DNA from: Escherichia coli
Lineage (GTDB): Bacteria; Pseudomonadota; Gammaproteobacteria; Enterobacterales; Enterobacteriaceae
Strand: one strand, 5' to 3'
NCBI RefSeq assembly: GCF_013315695.1
Contig: NZ_CP054353.1
Length of the DNA: 64,000 nucleotides
Each line of letters begins with the position of its first letter. Position 1 is the first letter of the stretch. Shown piece by piece: positions 54,946 to 54,968 of this stretch. The notes beneath the pieces were generated by a model. That model was not told the DNA's origin and searched no databases. It saw only the letters and a list, made by a program, of their open reading frames with translations. A program made the position numbers and the translations under genes.

Positions 54946-54968
54946 AATAAGGATGTTGTAACTAAAGT
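54946..54968. promoter_or_regulatory. Tus-binding replication terminator site (TerB-type): AATAAGGATGTTGTAACTAAAGT
   Basis: 23-bp match to the Ter consensus core GTTGTAACTA read directly, 10 bp upstream of the tus start codon. Confidence 0.8.

What the first reader, a model, noticed from the sequence alone, without database searches (positions are those of the whole stretch)
54946..54968. Ter site upstream of tus differs by one base from the TerB sequence I recall
The site reads AATAAGGATGTTGTAACTAAAGT; I remember TerB as AATAAGTATGTTGTAACTAAAGT (G versus T at position 7). The core GTTGTAACTA including the critical C is intact, so Tus binding should be preserved. This may be a strain polymorphism or an error in my recollection.
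Basis: partly seen in the sequence, partly recalled or inferred. Interest (0 to 1): 0.2.

Follow-up and report, generated by a model that had tools for sequence, protein, structure and literature searches.

The report
Common G7 allele of E. coli TerB
The site is the ordinary TerB replication-terminator site in front of the tus gene, and its one-base difference from the K-12 reference is a common natural variant found in about half of sequenced E. coli genomes, at a position already known to tolerate change.

Summary
Window 54946-54968 (+) reads AATAAGGATGTTGTAACTAAAGT. It lies 10 nt upstream of the tus ATG, in the order rstA-rstB-TerB-tus-fumC.

The G at position 7 is a frequent allele, not an error or a rarity. 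Among 5,426 complete RefSeq E. coli genomes, 2,207 + 567 = 2,774 (51%) carry G7. These include O157:H7, E. coli B, E2348/69 and clone D i14. Another 2,607 (48%) carry T7.

Five outgroup Ter sites next to tus all have T7 (E. albertii, Salmonella arizonae, Enterobacter, Cedecea, Buttiauxella). G7 is therefore probably derived within E. coli.

G6 and the core at positions 8-19 are intact. Positions 5-20 match K-12 TerC, which has G7 natively and is a strong terminator. Goodall et al. 2021 already reported position 7 as variable across phylogroups and without base-specific Tus contacts. Tus is intact and 98% identical to K-12.

Verdict: known element, known kind of polymorphism, low interest.

The parts
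54946..54968 (+). TerB, the 23-bp Tus-binding replication terminator site next to tus, in its G7 allele: AATAAGGATGTTGTAACTAAAGT
   Evidence: It matches K-12 TerB at 22 of 23 positions. It occupies the same position, 10 nt before the tus ATG, as in all E. coli loci examined.
54952..54952 (+). Polymorphic Ter position 7: G here, T in K-12
   Evidence: Alignment. Allele counts are G7 2,207 + 567 and T7 2,607 of 5,426 genomes.
54951..54951 (+). G6, whose partner C6 on the - strand is the base that flips into the Tus pocket to form the lock. It is conserved here.
   Evidence: Sequence. The role of C(6) is taken from PMC4499146.
54969..54978 (+). 10-nt spacer GGTTAATATT between TerB and the tus start codon
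   Evidence: Toft et al. 2021 also describe a 10 bp region between tus and TerB. A GG-to-GA variant of this spacer occurs in 567 genomes but not in the window.
54979..55908 (+). tus gene: 309 aa plus stop, the DNA replication terminus site-binding protein
   Evidence: Pfam PF05472 'Ter' at E = 5e-137 over the full length. 302/309 identical to K-12 Tus and to PDB 1ECR/2I06.
54938..54946 (+). Possible extended -10 element TGcTATAAA of the tus promoter, abutting Ter position 1 (inferred only)
   Evidence: Read from the sequence. It is identical in all alleles. The consensus promoter scan reported nothing here. That TerB overlaps the tus promoter comes from the literature.
53602..54903 (+). rstB, the upstream neighbour (context)
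55905..57308 (-). fumC, the downstream convergent neighbour (context)

Best explanation
This is TerB, the Tus-binding terminator site that sits in the tus promoter region of E. coli, carried here as the G7 allele, which is one of the two major natural alleles. Tus, encoded 10 nt downstream, binds the 23-bp site. A fork moving in the window's + direction meets the position-1 end first, unwinds through G-C(6), and is arrested when C6 locks into Tus. A fork moving in the - direction displaces Tus and passes. Tus bound at TerB also represses tus transcription. The T-to-G change at position 7 is expected to be functionally neutral or nearly so. Shown here: the sequence, the context, the allele frequencies, the intact Tus and the identity to TerC at positions 5-20. 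Taken from the literature or inferred: binding, polarity, autoregulation and the neutrality of position 7.
For: The site and its uniqueness in the window come. The rstB-TerB-tus-fumC synteny is seen in 5,424 of 5,426 E. coli genomes. K-12 has T7. The G7 32-mer is exact in 2,207 genomes, including O157:H7, E. coli B, E2348/69 and clone D i14. G7 with a spacer SNP is found in a further 567 genomes, and T7 in 2,607. K-12 TerC, ATATAGGATGTTGTAACTAATAT, has G7 and matches the window site at positions 5-20. TerC is listed among the high-affinity, lock-forming sites bound by Tus in vivo (PMC8707476). Goodall et al. 2021 report position 7 as variable across phylogroups and without base-specific contacts in either the bound or the locked complex. 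Tus is full length and matches PF05472 at E = 5e-137. It is 98% identical to the crystallised protein, with changes only at residues 16, 23, 27, 116, 119, 221 and 225. GC skew on the + strand is negative in 7 of 8 bins, so the fork that normally replicates this region moves in the - direction and meets the permissive face. That is the layout expected of a fork trap. The non-permissive end is the position 1-6 end (PMC4499146). Autoregulation through TerB in the tus promoter is stated.
Against: No binding, fork-arrest or expression measurement exists for this exact allele in anything I could read. The primary mutagenesis paper (Coskun-Ari & Hill 1997) is not held, so the neutrality of position 7 rests on a secondary citation and on the TerC analogy. 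TerC differs from TerB in its flanks (positions 1-4 and 21-23), so it is not a perfect proxy. The consensus scan found no sigma-70 promoter, so where the SNP lies relative to the tus transcription start is unknown.
Confidence: 0.95

Rival explanations
1. The G is a sequencing or assembly error in this one record.
For: None beyond the fact that it is a single-base difference from K-12.
Against: The same G is present in 2,774 independent complete genomes. It sits on a 1,551-bp haplotype that is 100% identical in isolate AF3.
Confidence: 0.005
2. The reader misremembered TerB, and the reference also has G.
Against: Two MG1655 records read T at position 7, and three papers print the T7 23-mer as TerB.
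Confidence: 0.005
3. G7 is a functionally distinct allele. It would change lock formation on the C6 strand (CC instead of AC at positions 7-6), or change tus promoter or start-site usage and hence Tus dosage, and it would have spread by selection.
For: G7 appears derived, because five of five outgroup Ter sites next to tus have T7, yet it has reached about 51% of sampled genomes. The SNP lies 6 nt downstream of the possible extended -10 element (54938-54946), about where transcription would start if that element is the promoter (inference).
Against: Published work says position 7 makes no base-specific contact and tolerates change. K-12 TerC carries the same bases at positions 5-20 and is a strong terminator. 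The allele frequency can be explained by lineage structure and sampling bias, since O157:H7 and other heavily sequenced clones carry G7. In the 14 loci read, G7 is linked to Tus I23A only about 100 bp away, as expected from plain linkage.
Confidence: 0.04
4. The site is a chance match to the Ter consensus and not a functional terminator.
For: None.
Against: Zero matches are expected by chance. The position 10 nt before tus is conserved across E. coli and E. albertii, and comparable spacing (8-12 nt) is seen in Salmonella, Enterobacter, Cedecea and Buttiauxella.
Confidence: 0.001

Closest known systems
TerB of E. coli K-12 MG1655 (NC_000913.3 1,684,226-1,684,248)
   Same: Same locus and orientation, and the same 10-nt spacer to the tus ATG. 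22 of 23 bases are identical, including G6 and the whole core at positions 8-19.
   Different: T in K-12 versus G here at position 7. The surrounding tus gene is 94-96% identical, against 97-99% for most flanking 250-nt windows.
TerB of G7-allele strains such as O157:H7, E. coli B, E2348/69 and clone D i14
   Same: The 32-mer covering Ter positions 3-23, the spacer and the A of the ATG is 100% identical. Isolate AF3 is identical over 1,551 bp.
   Different: Nothing within the site. Some G7 strains have T at Ter position 2. 567 genomes have a GG-to-GA change in the spacer.
TerC of E. coli K-12 (NC_000913.3 1,609,157-1,609,179, ATATAGGATGTTGTAACTAATAT)
   Same: G at position 7, and positions 5-20 identical to the window site. 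It is a high-affinity, lock-forming site.
   Different: It is a different locus, between yneE and uxaB and not next to tus. Its flanking positions 1-4 and 21-23 differ, and it has no role in tus autoregulation.
Ter sites next to tus in other Enterobacterales (E. albertii, Salmonella enterica subsp. arizonae, Enterobacter sp. R1, Cedecea neteri, Buttiauxella noackiae)
   Same: A Ter site immediately upstream of the tus start codon with identical positions 8-23 (required by the search pattern) and G6.
   Different: All five have T at position 7. Positions 1-5 and the spacer differ.

Membership tests
Ter site (Tus-binding polar replication terminator) | Conserved core GTTGTAAC(T/G)A at positions 10-19, preceded by (A/T)(T/A) at positions 8-9 | tested here: met
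   ATGTTGTAACTA is present at 54953-54964. It is an exact match to GNRNGTTGTAAYKA and the only one in the window.
Ter site (Tus-binding polar replication terminator) | G-C base pair at position 6, which supplies the C6 needed for the lock | tested here: met
   G at 54951. The role of C(6) is described in PMC4499146.
Ter site (Tus-binding polar replication terminator) | An intact cognate Tus protein encoded in the genome | tested here: met
   309-aa ORF matching PF05472 at E = 5e-137 and 98% identical to PDB 1ECR/2I06.
Ter site (Tus-binding polar replication terminator) | Orientation permissive for the fork that normally replicates the region and non-permissive for the fork leaving the terminus | tested here: met
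   GC skew on the + strand is negative in 7 of 8 bins, so the normal fork moves in the - direction. The position 1-6 end, which is the non-permissive face, faces forks moving in the + direction. The skew signal is modest, and the window contains no dif site to anchor it.
Ter site (Tus-binding polar replication terminator) | Tus binding and polar fork arrest demonstrated | not testable with these tools
   This needs EMSA or SPR and 2D-gel or replication assays.
TerB specifically (the Ter site next to tus) | Located between rstB and tus, about 10 bp upstream of the tus ATG, overlapping the tus promoter | tested here: met
   The position is shown. The 10 bp spacing also appears in PMC8707476. The promoter overlap is taken from the literature, and the promoter scan itself found nothing.
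TerB specifically (the Ter site next to tus) | Sequence identical to the K-12 reference TerB | tested here: not met
   22 of 23 bases match, with G versus T at position 7. Identity to K-12 is not a requirement for being TerB: 51% of complete E. coli genomes share the G.
TerB specifically (the Ter site next to tus) | Mediates autorepression of tus by Tus | not testable with these tools
   This is stated for K-12. It was not measured for the G7 allele.

The most novel reading that the evidence does not exclude
The derived G7 allele is not neutral. By changing the base next to the flipped C6, or a base at or near the tus transcription start, it would slightly alter lock kinetics or Tus autoregulation, and it would have risen to about half of E. 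coli by selection rather than by lineage structure.
Probability: 0.04. Interest if true: 0.3.

Novelty: already known. Interest (0 to 1): 0.05.

Why it matters
It matters very little. The result confirms that the window comes from the E. coli terminus region and that its fork-trap element next to tus is intact. The useful by-products are three. The K-12 TerB sequence used in most in vitro work represents only about half of sequenced E. coli. The other half carries G at position 7, as TerC does. T7 appears to be the ancestral state. This is worth remembering when scanning genomes for Ter sites with an exact K-12 string, but it opens no new question.

Tried and rejected
- The sigma-70 promoter scan over 54800-55100 found no site, so the promoter anatomy is only my reading of a possible extended -10 element.
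- I tried to read Coskun-Ari & Hill 1997, the primary mutagenesis data for each TerB position, but it is not held. I relied on Goodall et al.'s citation of it.
- The NC_000913.3 feature table shows no annotated TerB feature, so the comparison with the reference TerB was made on the sequence itself.
- The first two 32-mer counts (G7 2,207 and T7 2,607) left about 610 genomes unexplained. I did not guess at A7 or C7 alleles. I read more loci and found a spacer SNP (GG to GA) that had blocked megablast seeding. A third count recovered 567 genomes, all with G7. About 45 genomes remain unclassified. Two of them lack the locus altogether and five hold only part of it.
Only five loci had a tus gene directly downstream, so the outgroup sample is small.
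- Co-evolution of Tus with the G7 site was considered and rejected. Tus serves all Ter sites. In 14 loci the only association seen is with I23A, about 100 bp away, which is plain linkage.

Full report
**1. Observation**

Window 54946-54968 (+) reads AATAAGGATGTTGTAACTAAAGT. A search with the K-12 TerB 23-mer at up to 3 mismatches finds only this site, with one mismatch. None of 100 dinucleotide-preserving shuffles gave any match. It is also the only exact match in the window to the Ter consensus GNRNGTTGTAAYKA; the three one-mismatch matches elsewhere (four matches in all) are no more than the shuffles give. The mismatch is G at window 54952, which is Ter position 7.

**2. Context**

- The site lies after rstB (53602-54903, +). 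It is 10 nt upstream of the ATG of a 309-codon gene (54979-55908, +), which converges on fumC (55905-57308, -).
- That gene is tus. It matches Pfam PF05472 over its full length at E = 5e-137. It is 302/309 identical to K-12 Tus and to the crystallised protein in PDB 1ECR, 2EWJ, 2I05 and 2I06.
- A 1,551-bp stretch spanning the rstB 3' end, TerB, tus and the fumC 3' end matches 5,424 of 5,426 complete RefSeq E. coli genomes with the same gene order. The window is therefore E. coli chromosome in the K-12 orientation.

**3. The reference**

Two MG1655 records read AATAAGTATGTTGTAACTAAAGT at the homologous place. In NC_000913.3 this is 1,684,226-1,684,248. Three papers print this 23-mer as TerB.

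**4. How common the G is**

I used 32-mer megablast queries in which every possible 28-base seed must span position 7. The counts among 5,426 complete genomes were:

| Allele | Genomes |
|---|---|
| G7 | 2,207 |
| G7 with spacer change GGTTAATATT to GATTAATATT | 567 |
| G7 total | 2,774 (51%) |
| T7 | 2,607 (48%) |
| Neither query matched | about 45 |

- The first two counts left about 610 genomes unaccounted for. Reading further loci showed that many carry G7 together with the spacer SNP, which had blocked seeding.
- G7 carriers include O157:H7 strains, E. coli B, E2348/69 and clone D i14.
- Minor variants also exist: T at Ter position 2, and a 1-bp insertion in isolate 366_BP0076.
- These frequencies reflect what has been sequenced, not the natural population.

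**5. Polarity of the change**

Five of them have a tus homologue starting 8-12 nt downstream:

- E. albertii
- Salmonella enterica subsp. arizonae
- Enterobacter sp. R1
- Cedecea neteri
- Buttiauxella noackiae

All five have T at position 7. T7 is therefore probably ancestral and G7 derived within E. coli. The sample is small.

**6. Expected function**

- G6 is intact; its partner C6 forms the lock. The whole core at positions 8-19 is also intact.
- K-12's own TerC, ATATAGGATGTTGTAACTAATAT, has G7 and is identical to the window site at positions 5-20. TerC is among the high-affinity, lock-forming sites occupied by Tus in vivo (Toft et al. 2021, PMC8707476).
- Goodall et al. 2021 (PMC8347550) compared ter sites across phylogroups A, B1, B2, D and E. 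They explicitly list position 7 as variable. [quoted passage not shown] I could not read the 1997 paper itself.
- The window's Tus differs from K-12 at Q16H, I23A, H27E, H116R, K119Q, A221T and N225D. From my own knowledge of the Tus-Ter structures, the cytosine-pocket and key DNA-binding residues are E49, I79, F140, H144, G149 and R198. None of them is changed.

**7. Mechanism and orientation**

- Forks are arrested when they approach the position 1-6 end and unwind G-C(6) (PMC4499146). In the window this means forks moving in the + direction.
- GC skew of the + strand is negative in 7 of 8 bins. The fork that normally replicates this region therefore moves in the - direction and meets the permissive face, as a fork trap requires.
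- TerB lies in the tus promoter and mediates autorepression of tus.
- In the sequence, TGcTATAAA at 54938-54946 looks like an extended -10 element abutting Ter position 1. That would put position 7 near the transcription start. This is only inference, because the consensus promoter scan reported nothing.

**8. Comparison and novelty**

This is TerB in every defining respect that could be tested: sequence class, G6, locus, spacing, cognate protein and orientation. The one-base difference from K-12 is one of two major alleles at a position already described as variable. It is already known and of low interest.

The only non-excluded twist is that the derived G7 allele subtly alters lock kinetics or tus autoregulation. 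I give that about 4%.

Noticed in passing
window 54400-55950: The tus-region haplotype is uncommon. Only 17 of 5,424 genomes are at least 99% identical over these 1,551 bp, and isolate AF3 (NZ_OZ547117.1, blood culture, UK) is 100% identical. Against K-12, tus is 94-96% identical while most flanking 250-nt windows are 97-99%. Tus carries 7 substitutions relative to K-12, more than the 1-3 per strain reported for five phylogroup representatives.
   Followed up: partly
window 54969-54978, compared with L008, L009 and L011: A second polymorphism sits in the 10-nt TerB-tus spacer. The sequence GGTTAATATT becomes GATTAATATT in 567 complete genomes, always together with G7 in the loci read, and with Tus L105F/T136S/A137V/L147F. 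The window itself has GG.
   Followed up: partly
L003 (NZ_OZ121091.1, isolate 366_BP0076) and L018 (E. albertii): One E. coli isolate has a 1-bp insertion (AATAAAGTATG...). Its TerB 23-mer, ATAAAGTATGTTGTAACTAAAGT, is identical to that of E. albertii NBRC 107761. This could be a convergent indel or an imported allele.
   Followed up: no
window 1-25000: The first 25 kb is AT-rich (GC 0.43-0.47). Its matches carry prophage and IS annotations, including a site-specific integrase, exonuclease, ydfU, IS2/IS3 and ISNCY transposases, and rspB. It is only 99.7% identical to isolate AF3, although the tus region is 100% identical. This looks like a Qin/Rac-like defective prophage region with strain-specific IS content.
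   Followed up: no
summary: One of the 2,207 matches to the G7 TerB-tus 32-mer lies on a record labelled as a plasmid. This is probably a mislabelled or misassembled chromosomal piece.
   Followed up: no
window 54967-54978: The mechanical ORF list starts tus at a GTG inside TerB (54967, MVNIMARYD...). RefSeq annotation and the K-12 protein start at the ATG at 54979.
   Followed up: yes
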